A stretch of DNA of 40,674 bases, taken from the IMG/VR virus record IMGVR_UViG_3300043932_000061; one strand, given 5' to 3'. The translations under genes were made by a program, and so were the position numbers. Below, piece by piece: positions 1 through 40,674 of this stretch (the stretch's first letter is position 1; every line of letters begins with the position of its first letter). The notes under the pieces are model-generated. The model was given only the letters and a program-made list of their open reading frames with translations, ran no database searches and was not told the origin of the DNA. Source of the DNA: a virus.

Positions 1-127
1 CGCCTGCCCATTGCCTGTCGGAAAGCAGGCGTAAAAATAATATTATTCAGATCACGAATATATTTTGTTTGTCTGATTTTAATTTACAGAATTGCATCTG
101 GTTTAGCTCTGTACCTAACAGAGCATT
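1..127. repeat. Terminal overlap identical to 40548..40674 (circular closure or assembly overlap)
   Basis: Compared base by base: 1..127 equals 40548..40674 exactly, so the window ends are contiguous and the unique unit is 40547 bp. Confidence 0.95.
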
Positions 128-129
128 CT

Positions 130-237
130 AGGATATAGCCAGCCATTGGCGAGCTGGGGTAGTGGCAATTCTACCGAGATATAGCTAAGCATGCCAGCGA
201 CAATTATCTCTTATCGGTTCAATTCCGATGTATCCTC
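130..237 (+). ncRNA. Oversized tRNA-like module (class II-like with an expanded variable arm)
   Basis: Acceptor AGGATAT/GTATCCT. D arm CCAG-CCATTGGCGAG-CTGG. Helix GGTAG/CTACC with 8-nt loop TGGCAATT. 6-bp arm GAGATA/TATCTC with 24-nt loop. T arm ATCGG-TTCAATT-CCGAT. Confidence 0.5.
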
Positions 238-301
238 TAGATTAGCTTTTAGTTATTACGGTTTTCCCAGGTTTGTTTGTTTCGTGACAAAAGCTAATCT
301 A
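238..301 (+). ncRNA. Perfect 13-bp hairpin spacer between tRNA-like modules
   Basis: TAGATTAGCTTTT (238-250) pairs perfectly with AAAAGCTAATCTA (289-301). 38-nt loop contains (GTTT)3. Confidence 0.6.
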
Positions 302-306
302 AACTT

Positions 307-402
307 GGCTCGTTGGTCAAATGGCTAAGAAATGGGTGGATTAACTGACAAGGTAGTTGCCCTTTAACGGTGGAGTTACAAGTTCAATTCTTGTACGAGC
401 TA
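307..402 (+). ncRNA. tRNA-like module with an insertion in the D region
   Basis: Acceptor GGCTCGT/ACGAGCT (G1.U72). T arm ACAAG-TTCAATT-CTTGT. Two alternative internal folds: TAACT/AGTTG with 8-nt loop, or TTGCC/GGTGG with 7-nt loop CTTTAAC. Confidence 0.45.
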
Positions 403-420
403 TTAGATCTAAAATAAAAA

Positions 421-495
421 AGTAGTATTGAAGATGGTATAATCAGGATGCCGGCAATCATGGAGAATGTAGGTTCAAGTCTTACCCTTACTACT
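421..495 (+). ncRNA. Degenerate tRNA-like module (possible tRNA pseudogene)
   Basis: T arm GTAGG-TTCAAGT-CTTAC. Acceptor AGTAGTA pairs perfectly with TACTACT only after a 3-nt CCT bulge. 3-bp D-like stem. Weak central arm with loop CCGGCAAT. Confidence 0.4.
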
Positions 496-500
496 TATCT

Positions 501-574
501 GGTAACTTAGCTCAGTTAGTAGAGCATTGGTGTGAAGTACCAAGCTAGCGATGGTTCGATCCCATCAGTTGCCA
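501..574 (+). tRNA. tRNA, anticodon GAA (Phe-like), with atypical positions
   Basis: Full cloverleaf read by hand: acceptor GGTAACT/AGTTGCC, D arm GCTC-AGTTAGTA-GAGC, anticodon arm TTGGT-GTGAAGT-ACCAA, 6-nt variable loop, T arm GATGG-TTCGATC-CCATC. Deviations: A at a conserved D-loop G, G32, and no encoded CCA. Confidence 0.6.
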
Positions 575-611
575 TAGGAGGCTGATCACCTCCACGATTC
601 ATGAAAAGGGT

Positions 612-682
612 AGCGATATAGCTTAATCGGTGGAGCGGGCCGTGAAAACGGCTGCGGGGCGGTTCGAATCCGTCTATCGCTA
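612..682 (+). tRNA. tRNA-like gene with a shortened anticodon loop (TGAAAA; GAA-type)
   Basis: Acceptor AGCGATA/TATCGCT, D arm GCTT-AATCGGTG-GAGC, T arm GGCGG-TTCGAAT-CCGTC. The anticodon stem GGCCG/CGGCT encloses only 6 nt, and can also fold as GCCGT-GAAA-ACGGC. Confidence 0.5.
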
Positions 683-717
683 TTGCTGGAACAACCAGCT
701 TTCAATTTATTCATCTC

Positions 718-750
718 AAAGAGTAATTATTTTTTAGTTACTCTTTTTTT
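718..750 (+). terminator. Rho-independent terminator closing the RNA locus
   Basis: AAAGAGTAA/TTACTCTTT 9-bp stem followed by a T-run. Confidence 0.6.
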
Positions 751-761
751 GTTACCTCCTC

Positions 762-790
762 TTGATTATGCATACTATTATATGTATAAT
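762..790 (+). promoter_or_regulatory. Sigma-A type promoter of the hicAB/late-side operon
   Basis: TTGATT (762-767), 17-nt spacer, TATAAT (785-790). ATGCAT motifs at 768-773 and 789-794 flank the -10. Confidence 0.6.
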
Positions 791-822: not shown

Positions 823-1044
823 ATGCCATGGAAACCTGCTAAAATGCTAAGATTTCTGAAAAAACATGGTTTTGTTGAGATTGGAAGATATACTCATAAA
901 GGTACAAGTCACATCAAACTTATCAATCATGAAACAAACCGCTATACCGAAGTTCCTATGCATAAAAGCAAAGAGCTTAAAAAAGGTATGGAGGCAGGAA
1001 TCTTAAAGCAAGCTGGTTTGACCAAAGAAGCACGTTCTAAGTAA
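823..1044 (+). CDS. hicA: HicA-family mRNA interferase toxin
   Basis: ORF 793..1044, with the best SD (GAGGAGG) before the ATG at 823. The LRFLKKHGF...GSHIK...VPMH..KELKKG..ILKQAGL pattern is typical of HicA/YcfA. Confidence 0.8.
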   Translation: MPWKPAKMLRFLKKHGFVEIGRYTHKGTSHIKLINHETNRYTEVPMHKSKELKKGMEAGILKQAGLTKEARSK

Positions 1045-1067
1045 CGCGCTTTTGGCGTATTCAGATT

Positions 1068-1463
1068 ATGAAGAAACAAGTTTTATATCCTGTAATTGCA
1101 AAAGAATACAATGACGAAGATGGTCATTATTTTGTTATTACGTCTCCTAATGTACAAGGAATGGTTGTTGAAGGAGACACATTAGAGGATGCAGTCGAAG
1201 AGGCAGCAATTGATATTGCTGATTGGTTCGAAGTAAAAGGAAAAGTAGAAGAAGCACAAGATCCTTCTAACTGGTCTTTAGAGAATGATGAAAGATTAGT
1301 TTACGTTCCTGTAAATCTTTCAAAGTTTTATGAAAAATACGGTAAAACAGTAAGAAAGAGCATAACCATTCCTGAATATCTTGCCTTGTGGGCTAAAGAA
1401 AATAAGATTAATGTTTCAAGAGTAGCTTCTGATGCTTTAAGAGGCTTACAAGAAAGCAAATAA
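1068..1463 (+). CDS. hicB: HicB-family antitoxin with a ribbon-helix-helix-like C-terminus
   Basis: N-terminal HicB pattern (YPVI..DG.Y.V..P...G....GDTLEDAVEEA) and C-terminal KSITIPEYL...VSRVASDALRGL. Lies immediately after hicA. Confidence 0.75.
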   Translation: MKKQVLYPVIAKEYNDEDGHYFVITSPNVQGMVVEGDTLEDAVEEAAIDIADWFEVKGKVEEAQDPSNWSLENDERLVYVPVNLSKFYEKYGKTVRKSITIPEYLALWAKENKINVSRVASDALRGLQESK

Positions 1464-6493: not shown

Positions 6494-8125
6494 ATGGGAC
6501 TATGGGCTAGCATTAAGAGTTTATTCAGGAAAGGAGGTGCTAAGTTAGGGATGATTAAATCACTAGGAGCTATTACAGATGATCCAAGAATTGCAGTGCC
6601 GGCAGAAGAATATACACGTATTCGCAGGGCTAAAGATTATTATTCTGATAAGCCTGTAGACGTTAAGTATTGGGTACTTGGTAATGAACGAAAGCGTAAG
6701 ATGAACACCGTCAATATGACGCAAAAAGCTTCTAAACGCCTAGCGTCAATTATCTTCAATGAACAATGTTCCATTAAGGTGAATGATAATGATTTACAAA
6801 AACAACTTGATGAGATTTTTCGTGAAAGTCGCTTTTACACAACATTTGAAACCAATCTACAGCGTGCTATAGCGTTAGGATCAAGTGCAATTAGGCCGTA
6901 TGTTGAAGATGACAAGATTAAATTGAATTGGTCTGACGCGTTAGGCGTATATCCATTGAATGCTAATACTACAGAAGTTAGAGAGATTGCATTAGCTCGT
7001 AAAATTGTTAAGACCGTTAACGATGAGCCACACTATTACACACTGCTAGAATTTCATCAATGGGGCAATAAACAAGCAGATGAGAACGGCCACGAATACA
7101 CACCTTACACAATTACTAATGAGCTGTATGAGTCAACTGATGAAAGCGAAACGGGCACTCAGGTATCTTTAAATTCAATTGAAGAGTATGCTGACTTGCC
7201 GAAACAAGCTACTTTTACGCATATAAATAAGCCCCTGTTTGCCTTCTATCGAAATCCTGGTGACAACAATAAGAGTTTTACTAGCCCACTAGGCTTAGGA
7301 CTATGTGATAATTGTCGGAATATCTTGGATGATATCAATTTGACACAGGACGGCTTTTATTGGGACGTTAAGACCGGCCGAAGACGTGTAATCATCCCTC
7401 AAAGCTGGGTAAGACGTCAAACTCAGATTAACGGCAATCCTATTCCGGAAAATCAGCAAATGTATTGGGACACAGATGATGATGTATTTGTGCCAGTTAA
7501 TGCCAGAATGGACGACAGCAGCGCCTTTAAGGATCTAACCATTAACATTCGTGCAGATCAATATCAAGCAGCGATGAGCTACTTCTTACATGAATTTGAG
7601 AATGAGATTGGATTAAGTGAAGGCACGTTCACAGCAACGCCTACTGGCATTCAGACAGCTACTGGTGTTGTCTCAAGCAACTCAATGACTTATCAAACTA
7701 GATCAAGTTACTTAACGCAGGTAGAGGACACTATAGACCAATTAGTTTATGCAATTGCTGAACTGCTACAGACACCAGAATTATGGAACGATCAACAGCC
7801 TAAATGGACCGGTGACTTAGATAGTTTAGTAATCACGCCTGACTTTAATGACGGCATATTCGTAGATCAAGATGCACAGTTTAAGAATGATTTATCAGCT
7901 CTTAACGCTGGTGCAATGCCTGTTAAAGAGTTTGTTAAGCGTAACTATAATTTGAGCGATGATGAGGCTGAAAACTGGGCGGAACAACTTCAAAAAGAAA
8001 AGGCCACACCAGCCCCTGACTTTGAGCAATTCAATCCATTAGCACTAGATACTAAGAACAAGGGAACTGATAAGCATGGATCCGGAACTAAACAAGATGA
8101 TGAAACAGGCAAGCAAAATAGTTGA
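6494..8125 (+). CDS. Portal protein (SPP1 gp6-like)
   Basis: 543 aa, directly after terL, with an acidic C-terminus. Confidence 0.85.
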   Translation: MGLWASIKSLFRKGGAKLGMIKSLGAITDDPRIAVPAEEYTRIRRAKDYYSDKPVDVKYWVLGNERKRKMNTVNMTQKASKRLASIIFNEQCSIKVNDNDLQKQLDEIFRESRFYTTFETNLQRAIALGSSAIRPYVEDDKIKLNWSDALGVYPLNANTTEVREIALARKIVKTVNDEPHYYTLLEFHQWGNKQADENGHEYTPYTITNELYESTDESETGTQVSLNSIEEYADLPKQATFTHINKPLFAFYRNPGDNNKSFTSPLGLGLCDNCRNILDDINLTQDGFYWDVKTGRRRVIIPQSWVRRQTQINGNPIPENQQMYWDTDDDVFVPVNARMDDSSAFKDLTINIRADQYQAAMSYFLHEFENEIGLSEGTFTATPTGIQTATGVVSSNSMTYQTRSSYLTQVEDTIDQLVYAIAELLQTPELWNDQQPKWTGDLDSLVITPDFNDGIFVDQDAQFKNDLSALNAGAMPVKEFVKRNYNLSDDEAENWAEQLQKEKATPAPDFEQFNPLALDTKNKGTDKHGSGTKQDDETGKQNS

Positions 8126-8924
8126 TTACTATGGTTACTTGCAACAGCATACCTTTTACTTGCTGATTGACGCTTTTAAAAAGCACAAGGGTATGCTTAC
8201 ACGTGTTGATGATAAAAGTATCTTAGAATGGCGTTTAAAGGCACTGGCTGAAATGGGTGGATTAACTGATAAAGTAGTTGACTTTATTGCTAAAAACATT
8301 GGCTATAGTAAACAGGCTATTTATGATCTTATTCAAGGCCAAGGTTTAACAGTTGCTAAAAGAATGAACAGTGAATTATCCACAGCATTAAAGCAACCAA
8401 TGCGAGGTGTGAGTGATGATACAGTAGCAATTATTAATGCTTATGCCGATCAAACCTTTAGAAATGTCAATAACTATGTTAATCAAACGCTGCTAACTAC
8501 TAATGTTCAAAAAAATAGTGCTCTTAAGACCTATCAGCAGATAGTAGACAAGACAGTGCTAGATGTATCTACTGGGAACAAGACAGCCGACAGGGCATTA
8601 AAAGACAACATTCTGCAATGGTATGACAAAGGTCTACCCACAGCCCTAACTGATAGAGGAGGACATGAATGGACGCTAGAAGGCTACACACGAACCGTTA
8701 TTACTTCTACAACACATCGAGTATTTAACGAAGCAAGAGCGCAATCTATGAAAGAGTTCGGAAGTGTGCTTGCTACTATGTCTAGTCATCCAGCAGCAAG
8801 ACCAGCTTGTGCACCTATTCAGGGCAAAGTGGTGTGTATTGTTCCTAAAAGTGATCCAAAGGCTGATCTTTCGTACCCTAATATTTACGATTATGGATAC
8901 GGCAAGCCGGCCGGCACACAGGGT
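8076..8924 (+). CDS. Minor head / head morphogenesis protein (SPP1 gp7 / Mu F-like), exon 1
   Basis: Lies after the portal gene. The reading frame stops 2 codons past the predicted 5' splice site. It ends ...YDYGYGKPAGTQG, just before the family's conserved NC(R/S)H motif. Confidence 0.75.
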
Positions 8925-9878
8925 AGACGTTAATGCCCTGTATAAACATTGTGAACCCTTAGCTTAGGGGTGTTTTAACGGTATTAATTGTCTACATAAA
9001 TGATATAATAGTTATATAGATTAATATTGTTAAAGCTAACGGGGAAAGCCTAATTTAGGTTAATCCCGTGCCAAGTTTAAGAGGTTCTCAGCGATGAATA
9101 AAACTATTGGAATTTATATAATTATTAATAAGGCAACTGGTAAAGTATATATTGGTCAGTCAACTGATATTCATCAAAGATTTATAGATCACTTTAAAAA
9201 AAGTGCAATAAATCAAAGACCTTATAATTTACATAAAGATATTGCTAAATATGGGATTCAAAATTTTAGTAAAAAAATCTTAGAAGAATGCAAAATCTCA
9301 GATCTTGATTTTTTAGAGAAAAAATGGATATTACTTTACAGAAAAAGAAATATTCCAATGTATAACGTAATAGACGGCGCTCCTACTAACGCTGAAAATA
9401 TGGCAAAAGCCAAAAGCGTTCAATTTTCTCAAATGAATAAAAGAAACTGGCAAAACAAAGAATATAGAGAAAGACATTCTAAGCTATCTAGTCAAATTCA
9501 AAAAGAAAGGCTAAAAGATCCAAAATATTTAGCAAAGAAAAGCCAGCAATTAAAAAAATACACTGATTCTCTTAAAAAGAGAGTTGGTCAATATACTAAA
9601 GATGGCAAACTAATTAACACTTTTGATGGTGTGCGAGAAGCTGAAAGAGCAACTGGCATAAATTCAAGACAAATTAGTGCAGTTTGCTTACACAAAAAGT
9701 ATAGAAAGAGTGCTGGCGGTTATCGCTGGGAATTTATTAAAAAGGTGTAGAGACTATCGAAAGAGTAAAAATCGAGTAGAGTAGACCGGAAGACAAGCTA
9801 CCGGTCGAAGTGCAATGCGAGGCGAAAGCCTTAGATGATATAGTCCGACACTTGTAGTAATACAAGATTACAGAAAAG
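8925..9878 (+). mobile_element. Group I intron carrying a GIY-YIG homing endonuclease gene
   Basis: P1: exon ACAGGGT (8918-24) pairs with intron GCCCTGT (8935-41), with U.G at the splice site. The last intron base is G9878. GNRA hairpins AGGC-GAAA-GCCT (9820-31) and CTTGTA-GTAA-TACAAG (9851-66), plus helix GACCGG/CCGGTC (9784-9806). Splicing restores an in-frame ...GTQG|INCSHILYPYIKGVS... Confidence 0.75.
9094..9750 (+). CDS. GIY-YIG homing endonuclease (intron-encoded)
   Basis: GIYIIINKATGKVYIGQS...R..DH motif. C-terminal I-TevI-like DNA-binding repeat (GINSRQISAV...GGYRWEF). Extended -10 TGATATAAT at 9001-9009. Confidence 0.85.
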   Translation: MNKTIGIYIIINKATGKVYIGQSTDIHQRFIDHFKKSAINQRPYNLHKDIAKYGIQNFSKKILEECKISDLDFLEKKWILLYRKRNIPMYNVIDGAPTNAENMAKAKSVQFSQMNKRNWQNKEYRERHSKLSSQIQKERLKDPKYLAKKSQQLKKYTDSLKKRVGQYTKDGKLINTFDGVREAERATGINSRQISAVCLHKKYRKSAGGYRWEFIKKV

Positions 9879-33406: not shown

Positions 33407-33552
33407 GTAAATGGATTAACCACAAGATCAACGAATTCATGGGGACTGATTTCACAGTACGTGAAACAGAAATACTTACGCTAGGTACCATGTGTACAGC
33501 ATTAGTAGCACTTATTTTTACGATGTATACAGCGATTTTTCCAAATATTTAG
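33403..33552 (+). CDS. Small hydrophobic-tail protein (49 aa, below the ORF-track cutoff)
   Basis: ATGA overlap with the upstream stop; C-terminal TM-like LGTMCTALVALIFTMYTAIF. Confidence 0.35.
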   Translation: MSKWINHKINEFMGTDFTVRETEILTLGTMCTALVALIFTMYTAIFPNI

Positions 33553-33565
33553 GGAGATGAGATAA

Positions 33566-33718
33566 ATGACATTAGAAACAAAATTAATCAGTAACAGTAA
33601 TGCTTTCTTCACTAGAGAAACACGACAACCGCTTATACCGGATGAATATCAAAAACAATTTGAGACAGATTTAATGACAACAAAAAAGCCGTTAACTGCG
33701 CCAACAGCTAACGACTAG
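33566..33718 (+). CDS. Small hypothetical protein (50 aa)
   Basis: SD GGGAGATGAG 5 nt upstream of the ATG. Confidence 0.35.
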   Translation: MTLETKLISNSNAFFTRETRQPLIPDEYQKQFETDLMTTKKPLTAPTAND

Positions 33719-33748
33719 AAAAATATATATAACCAAAGGAATTATAAC

Positions 33749-39599: not shown

Positions 39600-40142
39600 G
39601 TGGAACACAAAAACATTGATTTAGGGCTAAGTATGAACATGGAAAAGACTGCAAGACGGGTTACAGGCTTTCTTAAGTACGCGTTTCCAGAGTATGTAAA
39701 AGGTGCTGCTCTTAGCTTAGACGATCTAGCTGGCCAACCTTTTACAGGGATGCCAGCATCTCACAGTGCTACTAACTCGCAAGAGAAAAAGCTAGACCGA
39801 GCTTGGAAGAAAGTTGAAAAGAACGAGCTTAAAGCAGCAACCGTTTATCAAACTATATTGCTATGCCAAAAGAGTCCTACATATCCGTATCAGCAAATAC
39901 TTCTCAACAAATTCGTAAAAAAGCTTCCTGATTGGAAGATACAGCCGATAGTAGGGTATTCTAACAGCCAGTATTATTTAAAGCGCAGAGACGCCTTATG
40001 TGAGTTTGCTGAATTGCTTAATTCCAAGAAGGTAAAAAATGGGTGTTTCGATATACCTGATTTAGTCATTGAGATTGAACCAGAACCGGAAAAAAGTAAA
40101 TCGGACGATCACCGGACAGTTTCCGGACACTTATCGGATTGA
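39600..40142 (+). CDS. arpU: ArpU-family late transcription regulator
   Basis: Last gene of the early module. The EKTARRVTGFLKYAFPEY... and ...YQQILLNKFV layout fits recalled ArpU-family phage regulators. Confidence 0.65.
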   Translation: MEHKNIDLGLSMNMEKTARRVTGFLKYAFPEYVKGAALSLDDLAGQPFTGMPASHSATNSQEKKLDRAWKKVEKNELKAATVYQTILLCQKSPTYPYQQILLNKFVKKLPDWKIQPIVGYSNSQYYLKRRDALCEFAELLNSKKVKNGCFDIPDLVIEIEPEPEKSKSDDHRTVSGHLSD

Positions 40143-40155
40143 AACCATGGTAAAT

Positions 40156-40193
40156 TGTTATTGTCGAAAAAATAAAAAGTTTCGACAATAACA
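40156..40193 (+). terminator. 14-bp perfect hairpin after arpU (terminator-like, no clear U-tract)
   Basis: TGTTATTGTCGAAA / TTTCGACAATAACA with a 10-nt A-rich loop. Confidence 0.45.
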
Positions 40194-40547
40194 CCCTTTC
40201 AAACAAGGAAGATCCTAGAATCCTCCAAGAATTTTTAGTAATTACAATTTTAGATCTTTATTCAAGATCTCCTAGTACATCAACCATTATTTGTTTATCT
40301 CTGTCAAATAGTCTCATGATTGATGTGCAGCAGCATTTAGGTTCGATTCCTACTTGTTGCTTACCTAGGCCACGCTACGACCTAGGATTAAATATGCGAT
40401 GACCCCACGCTCGGGCGAGCGTGTTGTAGTTAAGAGTTGGCTAGTCGTTCAGCGGACTGCGCGATAGCCGTGGGCAGTACGACACAATTGGAATTTTAGA
40501 AAGAAAGCAGGAATTTTCTTTCACAATATGAAGTGGGTTCGATTCCC
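40194..40547 (+). ncRNA. 5' part of the ORF-free structured RNA locus (continues at 1..751)
   Basis: No ORF >=60 aa on either strand. Consecutive helices: 40252-40270, 40330-40360, 40364-40386, 40406-40423, 40439-40469, 40471-40557. Confidence 0.55.
40330..40360 (+). ncRNA. Acceptor/T-arm minihelix (tRNA top-half-like)
   Basis: GCAGCA (40330-35) pairs with TGTTGC (40355-60, one G.U). TAGG/CCTA stem closes T loop TTCGATT (40342-48). Confidence 0.4.
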
Positions 40548-40557
40548 CGCCTGCCCA
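40471..40557 (+). ncRNA. tRNA-shaped element with no canonical D or anticodon arm
   Basis: 7-bp acceptor TGGGCAG/CTGCCCA. T stem GTGGG/CCCGC with 8-nt loop TTCGATTC. Central 8-bp helix GAAAGAAA/TTTCTTTC (40499-40522) with 8-nt loop GCAGGAAT. Confidence 0.45.
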
Positions 40558-40674
40558 TTGCCTGTCGGAAAGCAGGCGTAAAAATAATATTATTCAGATC
40601 ACGAATATATTTTGTTTGTCTGATTTTAATTTACAGAATTGCATCTGGTTTAGCTCTGTACCTAACAGAGCATT
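40548..40674. repeat. Second copy of the 127-nt terminal overlap
   Basis: Identical to 1..127. Confidence 0.95.

What the first reader, a model, noticed from the sequence alone, without database searches (positions are those of the whole stretch)
40194..40674. ORF-free ~1.17-kb array of same-strand hairpins and tRNA-like modules between ArpU and the late-side promoter (5' half; continues at 1..751)
From the arpU stop (40142) to the promoter at 762, reading across the circular junction, no ORF of 60 aa or more exists on either strand. The rest of the genome is packed gene to gene.

The region is nearly continuous helices readable on the + strand:
- hairpin 40156-40193
- AGATCT/AGATCT hairpin 40252-40270
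- acceptor+T-arm minihelix 40330-40360
- CCTAGG/CCTAGG hairpin 40364-40386
- CACGCTC-GGGC-GAGCGTG 40406-40423
- nested helix 40439-40469 with a GTTCAGCG loop
- tRNA-shaped element 40471-40557

Seven GTTC(G/A)A-type T loops occur in one orientation across the whole locus. GOLLD and ROOL, the large ornate RNAs of Lactobacillales phages and prophages, are known to lie beside tRNAs, and GOLLD can contain them. This locus is therefore either a member or relative of that class, or an undescribed composite of tRNA-derived modules. I cannot assign it to a family from memory.
Basis: partly seen in the sequence, partly recalled or inferred. Interest (0 to 1): 0.85.

Follow-up and report, generated by a model that had tools for sequence, protein, structure and literature searches.

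The report
Phage island of tRNA-like RNAs
The gene-free 1.2 kb after the phage's late-gene regulator arpU is a same-strand string of one normal tRNA and several conserved, non-decoding tRNA-shaped RNAs, including a ~150-190-nt structured RNA family with no Rfam match; it is not GOLLD or ROOL.

Summary
Window 40548-40674 repeats 1-127, so the genome is a 40,547-bp circle. The stretch from the arpU stop (40142) to 792 is the largest gap in the genome without an ORF of 60 aa or more (1197 nt). Seven of the window's 13 T-loop motifs lie in it, all on the + strand.

The GOLLD/ROOL reading fails. Neither Rfam model matches, even at E<=10, in the window or in a contiguous homologous locus.

What is there is a tRNA/tRNA-like RNA island shared, as a mosaic, by Lactobacillus gasseri/johnsonii phages:
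- Only tRNA-Phe(GAA) (500-575) is canonical.
- 611-683 is a tRNA shape whose anticodon stem carries a 6-nt UGAAAA loop (a GAAA-capped stem in the single-sequence fold).
- 130-236 is a cloverleaf with an 8-nt loop and a 37-nt extra arm.
- 307-401 is a tRNA-Glu gene broken by a 31-nt patch copied from a phage gene.

The most conserved part is a "core" RNA (40432-40579) found in every relative that was fetched. It has a covarying hairpin, a tRNA-like acceptor/T-arm domain with a polypurine hairpin in place of the anticodon arm, and a 3' hairpin. A covarying T-loop minihelix (40330-40360) precedes it.

Wobble pairs put the fold in + strand RNA. The function is inferred, not shown.

The parts
39600..40142 (+). 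arpU-family late transcriptional activator gene (context, upstream boundary)
   Evidence: TIGR01637 40.8 bits (cut-off 43.1). PHROG 248 at 6.7e-24. The 91%-identical JNU_P7 locus is annotated 'ArpU family'.
40152..40193 (+). Conserved 18-nt box AAATTGTTATTGTCGAAA, forming the 5' half of a 14-bp hairpin (40155-40169 / 40180-40193)
   Evidence: The box is the only sequence between arpU and the core shared by the short-type and long-type relatives. The hairpin is kept with a different 3' partner in the long type (A3 helix 12-26/33-48, 97% paired). No T run follows it.
40252..40270 (+). AGAUCU/AGAUCU hairpin
   Evidence: 100% paired in 9 short-type sequences, with a U.G wobble in L030/L032. The loop is reverse-complemented in JNU_P7/L021/L080.
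40275..40328 (+). Long hairpin GUACAUCAAC...GUUGAUGUGC (12 bp plus an inner 6 bp)
   Evidence: A4 helices 149-161/208-220 (100% paired) and 162-167/197-202.
40330..40360 (+). T-loop minihelix: an acceptor-like stem stacked on a T arm (UAGG-UUCGAUU-CCUA), with no D or anticodon arm
   Evidence: MFE z = -4.1 when folded together with the next hairpin. Conserved in all types. In the long type it is an 11-bp stem with 6 pairs changed on both sides (A3 helix 327-338/346-357). In the short type 2 compensatory pairs were counted.
40364..40386 (+). CCUAGG/CCUAGG hairpin
   Evidence: 100% paired in both types. In long-type relatives its loop grows to ~40 nt and holds a second hairpin.
40391..40431 (+). 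5' stem region of the core RNA (AAUAUGC/GCGUGUU); contains the window-specific perfect hairpin 40406-40423
   Evidence: A2 helices 20-26/55-65, with CG<->AU changes in two pairs. The 40406-40423 helix is perfect only here.
40432..40579 (+). Core RNA, the universally conserved module. Sub-parts: AAGAG motif; hairpin P2 40439-40469 with an invariant GG in its loop; tRNA-like domain 40470-40558 (8-bp acceptor stem 40470-40477/40551-40558, polypurine/polypyrimidine hairpin 40499-40522 in place of the anticodon arm, T arm 40533-40549); 3' hairpin GCCUG-N8-CAGGC 40560-40577 (= 13-30)
   Evidence: 25 distinct sequences. 97.9% of cells are paired against 44-51% when partners are slid. 8 pairs have changes on both sides, and 0 of 500 shuffles reach the covariation score. 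The MFE of the window copy reproduces the consensus. Covariance model R1 scores 163 bits here. No Rfam family matches.
31..127 (+). AT-rich spacer (28% G+C) with hairpins 48-75 and 106-124
   Evidence: 100% identical in about 20 relatives. Hairpins appear in the MFE. No sigma-70-like + strand promoter was found.
130..236 (+). X1: 107-nt cloverleaf-shaped tRNA-like RNA (7-bp acceptor, 5-bp D stem, 5-bp stem with 8-nt loop UGGCAAUU, 37-nt extra arm, T arm)
   Evidence: The MFE is a cloverleaf. ARAGORN and Rfam tRNA do not call it. It is present in 8 relatives, and the D stem carries a compensatory C-G to U-A change in L030.
238..301 (+). 13-bp perfect long-range stem (UAGAUUAGCUUUU...AAAAGCUAAUCUA) closing a 38-nt loop
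   Evidence: Conserved at 89-100% in 7 relatives.
307..401 (+). Broken tRNA-Glu(UUC) gene: the 5' side of the anticodon stem is replaced by an insert (329-359)
   Evidence: jlb1 and Lj771 carry the intact tRNA-Glu at this position. Rfam tRNA scores only 15 bits here. The insert is a 29/31 copy of window 8250-8280 and was found in no other relative.
420..496 (+). X3: tRNA-like element (8-bp acceptor-like stem, T arm GUAGG-UUCAAGU-CUUAC); its interior is not a cloverleaf
   Evidence: Present in 5 relatives. The fold is not significant on its own (z = -0.9). This is the weakest module.
500..575 (+). tRNA-Phe(GAA), the only canonical tRNA
   Evidence: ARAGORN. Rfam tRNA 53.5 bits. Present in 19 relatives.
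611..683 (+). tRNA-shaped RNA whose anticodon stem carries a 6-nt loop UGAAAA (folds as a 6-bp stem capped by GAAA)
   Evidence: Rfam tRNA 45.1 bits, but ARAGORN reports 'tRNA-???'. MFE. In 8 relatives the acceptor and T stems carry compensatory changes, while the loop varies (UGAAAA, GACAA, UGACAAA).
685..746 (+). Two terminator-like hairpins (685-699 followed by TTTCAATTT; 718-746 followed by a T run) that close the array
   Evidence: the first one. (the second: a 9-bp AU-rich stem with a T7 tail).
762..790 (+). Sigma-70-type promoter TTGATT-17-TATAAT of the downstream hicA/hicB-like genes (downstream boundary)
   Evidence: HicA_toxin and HicB-like matches.

Best explanation
The locus is a + strand RNA-gene island of a temperate Lactobacillus gasseri/johnsonii-type phage. 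It mixes one decoding tRNA with a set of conserved, non-decoding tRNA-shaped RNAs.

Shown:
- The modules are there.
- They are conserved as structures in + strand RNA.
- The island is mosaic and recombines inside T loops.
- It is not GOLLD or ROOL.

Inferred mechanism:
1. The array is transcribed together with, or just after, arpU and ends at the terminators at 685-746. No sigma-70-type promoter was found between arpU and 762. In a distant relative the first module starts 4 nt after the arpU stop.
2. Each module offers an acceptor/T-arm stack. This is the shape that RNase P (5' side) and RNase Z plus the CCA-adding enzyme (3' side) recognise. No module encodes CCA.
3. The precursor is therefore cut into tRNA-Phe and several stable tRNA-like small RNAs, and the arpU message is separated from them.
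4. The tRNA-like products lack a usable anticodon loop, so they cannot decode. They most plausibly act through tRNA-binding factors, as substrates, competitors or decoys, late in infection.

The core RNA (40432-40579) is the constant member. The other modules come and go between phages.
For: Structure in RNA, + strand:
- Core: 97.9% of cells are paired against 44-51% for slid partners. 8 pairs have double changes, and 0 of 500 shuffles reach the score.
- Whole arpU-to-core RNA of the long type: 148 pairs, 97.4% paired against 37-45% slid, and 21 pairs with double changes against 8.1+/-1.9 in shuffles.
- Many G.U/U.G pairs would be A.C mismatches on the other strand.
- The 3' half folds to -233.7 kcal/mol on + against -189.5 on -.

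tRNA shape without decoding:
- X1 has an 8-nt loop.
- 611-683 has a 6-nt loop that varies in length among relatives while its stems covary.
- The core has an 8-bp hairpin with 4-8-nt loops.

Island character:
- Relatives carry Glu, Gln, Phe and Tyr tRNAs in varying combinations at the same place.

Transcription unit:
- No + strand promoter was called in 40000-40674 or in 1-761. Terminator-like hairpins lie at 685-746.
- In L149 the core-like RNA starts 4 nt after an ArpU-like ORF, and a strong terminator follows.

Generality:
- Nearly all of 80 loci with distant ArpU-like genes have 1-4 T-loop hairpins 200-1000 nt (up to ~1.8 kb in a few loci) downstream, almost exclusively on the gene strand.
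- Some of these are not callable as tRNAs, including one that lacks the anticodon arm.

3' ends:
- Every module has a discriminator base followed by U, and none has CCA (read).
- In Firmicutes this is the RNase Z route (own knowledge of B. subtilis tRNA maturation).
Against: - No transcript data exist, so the ends, the processing and the stability are all inferred.
- ArpU-dependent promoters need not resemble sigma-70 sites. The conserved box at 40152-40169 could be one.
- The window's own core has a chimeric T stem (3 G-C pairs plus a bulge) and its tRNA-Glu is broken. Part of this particular array may be decaying.
- X3 has no significant fold.
- The core family is narrow: L. gasseri/johnsonii-group phages plus one distant hit at 22.6 bits. 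Much of the covariation therefore comes from a few lineages. The shuffle control does not correct for relatedness.
- No partner protein is consistently encoded next to the array.
Confidence: 0.55

Rival explanations
1. One large composite RNA, analogous to GOLLD/ROOL. On this view the ~430-nt (window type) to ~600-nt (jlb1/Lj771/Lj965 type) stretch from arpU to the end of the core is a single ornate RNA. Its T loops dock on the conserved GG-containing loops (the P2 loop; GGUAG motifs) to build a higher-order fold or oligomer. It would be made late in infection next to the tRNA island, as GOLLD and ROOL are.
For: - The whole stretch is structured and covaries.
- It has a universally conserved 3' domain and a variable 5' domain (A2 against A3/A4). 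GOLLD is described the same way (PMC12286853).
- It lies beside a phage tRNA island, as GOLLD and ROOL do (PMC5737381, PMC12286853).
- The P2 loop holds an invariant GG, and the P2 stem (8-11 bp) is about as long as the acceptor/T stack.
- One conserved 6-bp long-range pairing links the 5' AGAUCU region to the AAGAGCU motif in the long type.
- The tRNA-shaped RNA at 611-683 folds with a GAAA (GNRA-type) cap in place of an anticodon loop in the single-sequence MFE. A cap of this kind could dock on a receptor.
Against: - Neither the GOLLD nor the ROOL model matches.
- Almost all predicted helices are local. The single long-range helix shows no compensatory change.
- 5' modules are gained and lost between phages: TL1 is absent from the window type, and L010 is only 319 nt.
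- In L158 the core is cut after the T arm and fused to tRNA-Phe. That is easier to reconcile with independent modules.
Confidence: 0.15
2. Decoys against tRNA-targeting immunity or toxins. On this view the non-decoding tRNA shapes soak up, or are harmlessly modified by, host nucleases or transferases that attack tRNA acceptor ends, elbows or anticodon arms. That would protect the real tRNA pool during late gene expression.
For: - Selection keeps the acceptor, T arm and elbow but not the anticodon loop.
- Several different shapes occur per phage and turn over fast between phages, as expected for arms-race genes.
- Phage tRNAs are known to counter tRNA-cleaving defences (PMC10264068, PMC11555353).
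- A defence that removes the anticodon arm has been described (PMC12445682).
Against: - No specific defence system or toxin is linked to the locus.
- The known cases use functional tRNAs with altered 7-nt loops, not anticodon-less mimics.
- The core is conserved rather than fast-evolving.
- Nothing was tested here.
Confidence: 0.12
3. Debris of a recombining tRNA island. On this view the odd modules are tRNA pseudogenes and recombination scars with no function of their own.
For: - The tRNA-Glu gene is broken by a 31-nt patch copied from ORF 8076-8933, with microhomology at both joints.
- The window's core T stem is a chimera of two lineages, with the breakpoint in the T loop.
- L158 fuses the core to tRNA-Phe.
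- Module content differs in nearly every phage.
- X3 has no significant fold.
Against: - Compensatory changes keep the stems of the core, the minihelix, X1 and 611-683. Decay would not do this.
- The core is present in every relative fetched by DNA similarity (7 GenBank phages) and was recovered in about 40 IMG/VR contigs and 23 metagenome contigs.
- This explanation fits single modules (307-401, perhaps 420-496), not the locus as a whole.
Confidence: 0.13
4. A DNA-level or cis-acting element. Candidates are a packaging (cos/pac) site, ArpU binding sites with a late promoter, or an RNA leader that makes RNA polymerase read through terminators into the late operon.
For: - The position lies between the late activator gene and the packaging genes.
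- An invariant 18-nt box directly follows arpU.
- Terminators at 685-746 stand between the array and the late genes.
Against: - Strand-specific G.U pairs and compensatory changes point to RNA, not duplex DNA.
- The array ends in terminators and the next genes have their own strong promoter.
- No record or contig end was seen to fall consistently in the element.
- cos and pac sites do not need T loops.
Confidence: 0.05

Closest known systems
Phage tRNA gene islands (for example the four annotated tRNAs of L. johnsonii prophage Lj965 at the homologous position)
   Same: - Same genomic slot, between the late regulator and the packaging genes.
- Same strand.
- Homologous flanking sequence.
- tRNA-Phe(GAA) is shared.
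- Module content is mosaic.

   Different: - Here only one module is a canonical tRNA.
- The constant element of the island, the core, is not a tRNA at all and is unannotated in every GenBank relative.

GOLLD and ROOL large ornate RNAs
   Same: - Phage or prophage location beside tRNA islands.
- A conserved 3' part and a variable 5' part (GOLLD).
- No ORF, and high predicted structure.
(PMC5737381, PMC12286853)
   Different: - No sequence or structure match to either Rfam model.
- Shorter: core ~150-190 nt, whole arpU-to-core RNA 430-600 nt.
- Built from local hairpins and tRNA-like junctions rather than multi-junction pseudoknotted domains.
tRNA-like domains of non-tRNA RNAs: the tmRNA tRNA-like domain and bacterial Y-RNA-like YrlA
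   Same: An acceptor stem stacked on a T arm with a canonical T loop. The anticodon arm is replaced by other structure.
   Different: - ARAGORN finds no tmRNA, and there is no tag reading frame.
- Rfam tmRNA gives only 7-11-bit T-loop matches against a 47-bit threshold.
- YrlA has no match in the window, and 19.6 bits against 69 in L001.
- The ends of the core are at the acceptor side, as in tRNA. In YrlA they are not (own knowledge).
Stable RNAs co-processed with phage tRNAs or by RNase P: T4 species 1 and 2 RNAs (rnaC, rnaD), and the P1/P7 C4 and P4 CI RNAs
   Same: Small phage RNAs with tRNA-like acceptor ends. They are matured by the host tRNA-processing enzymes, and the T4 ones are encoded inside the tRNA cluster (own knowledge).
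   Different: - No sequence relation could be tested with these tools.
- The host and phage group differ.
- C4 and CI act as antisense RNAs, and no antisense target was found for the modules here.
Streptococcus sRNA SpF41 (Rfam RF02435)
   Same: A tRNA-shaped small RNA (acceptor stem, T arm) followed by a terminator. It is the best non-tRNA Rfam match to 610-707.
   Different: The score is 22.8 bits against a gathering score of 52 (E = 0.5), so this is not a member.

Membership tests
GOLLD RNA (Rfam) | Match to the family covariance model | tested here: not met
   No match at the gathering score over the whole window. None at E<=10 in 1-820 and 40100-40674. None at E<=0.1 in seven contiguous homologous loci. 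None at E<=10 in L001:920-2320.
GOLLD RNA (Rfam) | Length often above 800 nt, with a conserved 3' domain and a variable 5' domain | tested here: inconclusive
   The conserved-3'/variable-5' pattern is present (A2 against A3/A4). The RNA would be only 430-600 nt.
GOLLD RNA / ROOL RNA | Encoded in phages or prophages, often beside tRNAs | tested here: met
   Temperate-phage genome with tRNA-Phe and tRNA-like genes in the same gap. This is context only and does not define membership.
ROOL RNA (Rfam) | Match to the family covariance model | tested here: not met
   Same searches as for GOLLD.
ROOL RNA (Rfam) | [quoted passage not shown] | tested here: not met
   The RNAalifold consensus of the 512-598-nt long type consists of 22 helices, nearly all local. 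The only multistem junctions are the tRNA-like ones. Pseudoknots were not searched systematically.
tRNA (Rfam RF00005 / ARAGORN) | Cloverleaf that scores above the 29-bit threshold, with a 7-nt anticodon loop | tested here: met
   Met in full only for 500-575: tRNA-Phe GAA, 53.5 bits.
tRNA (Rfam RF00005 / ARAGORN) | The same feature, for 611-683 | tested here: inconclusive
   45.1 bits, above threshold. But the loop is 6 nt, ARAGORN reports 'tRNA-???', and relatives have 5-7-nt loops.
tRNA (Rfam RF00005 / ARAGORN) | The same feature, for the core (40470-40558), the minihelix, X1 (130-236), X3 (420-496) and the broken Glu gene (307-401) | tested here: not met
   ARAGORN calls none of them. Rfam tRNA gives no match at E<=10, apart from 15.1 bits (E = 5.3) over 335-402.
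tmRNA | tRNA-like domain plus a tag-peptide reading frame and pseudoknots | tested here: not met
   ARAGORN finds no tmRNA. Rfam tmRNA matches only the T loops, at 7-11 bits against 47.
YrlA (bacterial Y-RNA-like) | Match to the family model; a Ro-binding stem formed by the two ends | tested here: not met
   No match in the window at E<=10. There is a partial 19.6-bit match against 69 in L001.
Substrates of RNase P / RNase Z (functional class) | Acceptor stem stacked on a T arm (about 12 bp) with a T loop, a discriminator base and no encoded CCA | tested here: met
   This is read from the sequence for the core, the minihelix, X1, the Glu remnant, tRNA-Phe and 611-683. Actual cleavage is not testable with these tools.

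The most novel reading that the evidence does not exclude
Lactobacillaceae temperate phages carry a previously undescribed class of anticodon-less tRNA mimics directly downstream of their ArpU-type late activator genes. The class would include the gasseri/johnsonii 'core' RNA, T-loop minihelices, and acceptor+D+T 'elbow-only' RNAs.

In the gasseri/johnsonii group these mimics would be joined into a 430-600-nt composite RNA. That RNA would be a third, independent counterpart of GOLLD and ROOL. It would use T-loop/GG-loop contacts to assemble. It would act on the tRNA machinery or on tRNA-targeting defences at the switch to late gene expression.
Probability: 0.15. Interest if true: 0.85.

Novelty: new variant of a known kind. 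Interest (0 to 1): 0.6.

Why it matters
Phage tRNA islands are usually read as lists of tRNAs. Whatever tRNA finders miss is left unannotated, and this island is blank in nearly every GenBank relative.

Here the constant, structurally constrained element of the island is not a tRNA. It is a tRNA-shaped RNA that cannot decode. Similar anticodon-less mimics sit behind arpU-like genes in L. plantarum-type prophages.

If these RNAs are made and processed as inferred, they form a tractable family. It is small, it occurs in cultivable probiotic-species phages, and it has natural variants. That makes it suitable for asking what non-decoding tRNA mimics do for a DNA phage. Possible roles are RNA processing and timing of the late switch, competition for tRNA-binding enzymes, or protection from tRNA-directed immunity.

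The locus also gives a third example to compare with GOLLD and ROOL, whose functions beside tRNA islands remain unknown.

If instead the modules prove inert, the locus still documents T loops as recombination breakpoints that shuffle phage tRNA islands.

Tried and rejected
- **Known RNA families.** Rfam at the gathering score and at E<=10 gave only the two tRNA matches plus chance-level hits: snoRNAs, miRNAs, a CRISPR repeat, and SpF41 at 22.8 bits.
- **tmRNA.** Rejected.
- **Coding.** A 17-codon ORF begins at the AUG in the core. Relatives have AUG UAG or no AUG there, so it is not conserved. KC5a's annotated orf28 over the core is probably a mis-call.
- **Promoter in long-type relatives.** A 'TATAAT' sits upstream of the core. 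It lies in the loop of the CCUAGG hairpin and is itself half of an 8-bp palindromic hairpin with a + strand G.U pair. The scan did not call it. It is left open but not adopted.
- **CsrA-type sponge.** GGA motifs occur in three loops. The central loop lacks GGA in Lj771 and Lj965, and I am not aware of a CsrA in these hosts. Dropped.
- **P3 hairpin as an intrinsic terminator.** It is followed by an A run, not a T run. Rejected.
- **Wider homologues.**
  - The genome contigs pattern scan gave 3 true loci (L. johnsonii, Lactobacillus sp.) among 36 matches, mostly chance.
  - A loose viral pattern gave mostly chance matches.
  - One viral scan was wasted on a mis-specified gap.
  - The metagenome scan added 23 close members and no intermediates.
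  - blastn of the distant L149 locus against GenBank phages found nothing.
- **Other copies of phage genes inside the array.** None apart from 329-359.
- **Literature.** No description of these RNAs was found. The J Bacteriol 2003 paper on L. johnsonii prophage tRNAs is not held.
Full report
**1. The observation**

The last 127 bases of the window (40548-40674) repeat bases 1-127. The sequence is therefore a 40,547-bp circle, and the locus is contiguous from the arpU stop (40142) to the promoter at 762-790.

- On the joined sequence the longest ORF with a start codon is 50 aa. The gap with no ORF of 60 aa or more on either strand is 1197 nt (40143->792). It is the largest in the genome; the next is 342 nt.
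- The upstream ORF (39600-40142) is an ArpU-family activator: TIGR01637 at 40.8 bits (cut-off 43.1) and PHROG 248 at 6.7e-24.
- The genes after the promoter are hicA-like, hicB-like, ASCH and PAPS-reductase-like.
- GTTCRANNC occurs 13 times in the window, and 7 of these lie in this 3% of the genome, all on the + strand.
- Folding energy is far below that of shuffles: z = -6.6 and -5.6 on the + strand. The 3' half is much weaker on the - strand, at -189.5 against -233.7 kcal/mol.
- The modules are G+C-richer (0.46-0.55) than the genome (0.37). The spacers are poorer (0.28-0.32).

**2. What is recognised by existing tools**

- ARAGORN and Rfam call two tRNAs: tRNA-Phe(GAA) at 500-575 (53.5 bits), and 611-683 (45.1 bits), for which ARAGORN cannot name an anticodon.
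- No other family reaches even E<=10 with a meaningful score.
- GOLLD and ROOL do not appear in the window. They are also absent at E<=0.1 from seven homologous loci where the region is not split by the junction, and at E<=10 from the contiguous jlb1 locus.

**3. Relatives**

- blastn finds the region only in Lactobacillus gasseri/johnsonii phages and prophages: jlb1, KC5a, JNU_P7, JNU_P11, Lj771, Lj928 and Lj965.
- Each has a long unannotated gap after an arpU-type gene. Each carries a different set of tRNAs there: Glu, Gln, Phe, Tyr and an odd 'Ser'.
- The window is a mosaic. Its 5' half matches JNU_P7 (91%) and its 3' half matches jlb1 (88-100%).
- Pattern scans added 34 IMG/VR loci, then 9 more, 23 metagenome contigs and 3 genomes (L. 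johnsonii, Lactobacillus sp.).

**4. The core RNA**

One block, window about 40391-40579, is present in every relative fetched.

Across 25 distinct sequences (alignment A2) RNAalifold gives the following elements:
- a 5' stem;
- a hairpin P2 (40439-40469);
- an 8-bp acceptor-like stem (40470-40477 with 40551-40558);
- a T arm with a canonical GGUUCRANYCC loop (40533-40549);
- an 8-bp polypurine/polypyrimidine hairpin (40499-40522), whose loop varies from 4 to 8 nt, where the anticodon arm should be;
- a 3' hairpin GCCUG-N8-CAGGC (40560-40577).

Support for this structure:
- 97.9% of cells form standard pairs, against 44-51% when partners are slid by 1-3 columns.
- Eight pairs change on both sides, among them three pairs of P2 and two of the 3' hairpin.
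- No shuffle of 500 reaches the covariation score.
- Several pairs alternate between G-C/A-U and G.U. Such pairs would be mismatches on the other strand, so the constraint is on + strand RNA.
- The window copy folds into the consensus on its own.

One caveat applies to the window copy. Its T stem joins the 5' half of the JNU_P7 type to the 3' half of the jlb1 type. That leaves three G-C pairs and a bulge, which marks a recombination breakpoint inside the T loop.

**5. Upstream of the core**

- The minihelix 40330-40360 is an acceptor-like stem stacked on a T arm, with nothing else. It is kept in all lineages with many compensatory changes. In the long type it is an 11-bp stem with 6 pairs changed on both sides.
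- The CCUAGG hairpin follows it in all types.
- Long-type relatives (512-598 nt from the box to the core end) carry a further module that the window lacks: an 8-bp stem, a 3-bp hairpin with loop UGGU, and a 6-bp T arm. In effect it is a tRNA without an anticodon arm. A GCCUG...CAGGC hairpin like that of the core follows it.
- Over the whole long-type RNA 148 pairs are 97.4% paired, against 37-45% when slid. Twenty-one pairs change on both sides, against 8.1+/-1.9 in shuffles.
- Nearly all helices are local. The one long-range helix has no compensatory support.
- An 18-nt box (40152-40169) directly after arpU is the only sequence shared by the short and long types in this part. It always forms the 5' half of a hairpin.

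**6. Downstream of the core**

- **X1 (130-236)** folds as a cloverleaf with an 8-nt loop UGGCAAUU and a 37-nt extra arm. Eight relatives have it, and one has a compensatory change in the D stem.
- **307-401** is the tRNA-Glu(UUC) gene of jlb1/Lj771 with the 5' side of the anticodon stem replaced.
  - The insert (329-359) is a 29/31 same-strand copy of 8250-8280 inside ORF 8076-8933, with microhomologies at both joints.
  - It was found in no other relative.
  - This module is best read as a recently broken gene.
- **X3 (420-496)** has an acceptor-like stem and a T arm but no significant fold.
- **611-683** keeps tRNA stems, with compensatory changes in the acceptor and T stems across eight relatives. 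Its anticodon loop is UGAAAA, GACAA or UGACAAA. In the window it folds as a 6-bp stem with a GAAA cap.
- Two terminator-like hairpins (685-699, 718-746) close the array.

**7. Beyond the gasseri/johnsonii group**

- A covariance model of the core (R1) finds all members at 108-171 bits.
- It also finds one distant full-length match at 22.6 bits (E about 1e-3 to 1e-4, rough calibration) in L149.
  - The match starts 4 nt after the stop of a 150-aa ArpU-like ORF.
  - It shares the six architectural elements.
  - A second anticodon-arm-less tRNA-like hairpin set, a strong terminator, and then terS/terL follow it.
  - ARAGORN finds no tRNA in that locus.
- Eighty loci with distant ArpU-like genes were also examined. 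These are L. plantarum-type prophages such as Sha1.
  - Nearly all have 1-4 T-loop hairpins 200-1000 nt (up to ~1.8 kb in a few loci) downstream of the gene, almost exclusively on its strand.
  - ARAGORN names tRNA-Asn, Trp and others.
  - It leaves further modules uncalled, for example L205 3352-3420, which has acceptor, D and T arms but no anticodon arm.

tRNA mimics behind arpU therefore recur across Lactobacillaceae phages.

**8. How it most likely works**

Shown: a + strand, structurally constrained set of tRNA and tRNA-like modules that is mosaic between phages.

Inferred:
- No sigma-70-type promoter is called on the + strand between arpU and 762. In L149 there is no room for one. The array is therefore probably transcribed with arpU, or from an ArpU-type promoter at the conserved box, and it ends at 685-746.
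- Each module presents the acceptor/T-arm stack with a discriminator followed by U and no CCA. In Firmicutes this is the substrate form for RNase P, RNase Z and the CCA-adding enzyme (own knowledge).
- Processing would release tRNA-Phe and several stable tRNA-like RNAs. It would also detach them from the arpU message.
- Selection keeps the acceptor/T-arm shape (plus a D arm in some modules) but not an anticodon loop. The products therefore probably act through factors that recognise tRNA shape.
- Which factor is involved, and to what end, is not known. I give the processing-island model 0.55.

**9. Rivals**

- **A single composite ornate RNA that works like GOLLD/ROOL (0.15).** It fits the context, the conserved-3'/variable-5' pattern and the invariant GG loops. 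It is weakened by the local helices and by module turnover.
- **Decoys for tRNA-directed defences (0.12).** This fits the selection pattern and recent work on phage tRNAs (PMC10264068, PMC11555353, PMC12445682). It has no direct support here.
- **Pseudogene debris (0.13).** This is right for 307-401 and perhaps 420-496. Compensatory changes in the other modules contradict it.
- **A DNA-level or cis-acting site (0.05).** The strand-specific wobble pairs argue against this.

**10. Novelty and score**

- Phage tRNA islands and tRNA-like domains are known kinds.
- The core RNA family, the T-loop minihelix and the anticodon-arm-less mimics behind arpU match no Rfam family, and I found them in none of the papers searched.
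- I rate the finding a new variant of a known kind, with interest 0.6.
- The core family is narrow and its function is unproven.
- The structural evidence is solid, and the system is experimentally accessible.

Noticed in passing
window 329-359 and 8250-8280: The insert that breaks the tRNA-Glu-derived gene is a 29/31 same-strand copy of a stretch inside ORF 8076-8933. Microhomologies (TGGCT, CTTTA) sit at the joints. It was found in no other relative. It turns the anticodon loop into CUUUAAC.
   Followed up: partly
window 40533-40549; L158 6192-6241: T loops act as recombination breakpoints. The window's core T stem is half JNU_P7-type and half jlb1-type. In L158 the core is fused to tRNA-Phe straight after its T arm.
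   Followed up: partly
window 40152-40169: The 18-nt box AAATTGTTATTGTCGAAA just after arpU is nearly invariant across otherwise unalignable short-type and long-type relatives. It is a candidate ArpU site, late promoter or RNA 5' element.
   Followed up: no
window 40252-40270 against L004 (JNU_P7), L021, L080: The AGATCT hairpin loop is TTATTCA in the window and in L018. It is the reverse complement, TGAATAA, in JNU_P7, L021 and L080, as if the hairpin had been inverted.
   Followed up: no
L199-L277 (L. plantarum-type prophages), e.g. L205 3352-3420 and 3466-3575: arpU-like genes are followed by tRNA-Asn and tRNA-Trp plus tRNA-like modules that are not called. One lacks the anticodon arm, and one carries a long insert. 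The first matches an unannotated stretch of Lactobacillus phage Sha1 at 95%.
   Followed up: partly
L267 4053-4124; L266 3314-3388: Where relatives have tRNA-Trp(CCA), L267 has a 72-nt tRNA with anticodon UCA. ARAGORN calls it 'SeC', but it is possibly an opal suppressor. L266 has tRNA-Asn with anticodon AUU instead of GUU.
   Followed up: no
L149 6044-6815: A distant prophage has no callable tRNA. It carries a core-like RNA 4 nt after an ArpU-like ORF, a second anticodon-arm-less tRNA-like element (about 6688-6736) and a strong terminator before terS/terL. Its terL is 60-63% identical to those of Oenococcus phages and Lj965.
   Followed up: partly
window 823-1463: A hicA toxin / hicB-like antitoxin pair sits directly behind the strong promoter at 762-790. 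It lies between the RNA island and the ASCH and PAPS-reductase-like genes.
   Followed up: no
L007 (KC5a) 1430-1714: The annotated 'orf28 hypothetical protein' of phage KC5a lies over the conserved core RNA and is probably a mis-annotation.
   Followed up: no
window 33407-33748: This is the second largest stretch without an ORF of 60 aa or more (342 nt). It was not examined.
   Followed up: no
L005 (Lj928) 2172-2325; L055 3017-3170: A weak second match to the core model (17 bits, E about 0.002-0.02) lies downstream of tRNA-Glu in Lj928 and in an L. johnsonii genome. It may be a diverged second copy.
   Followed up: no
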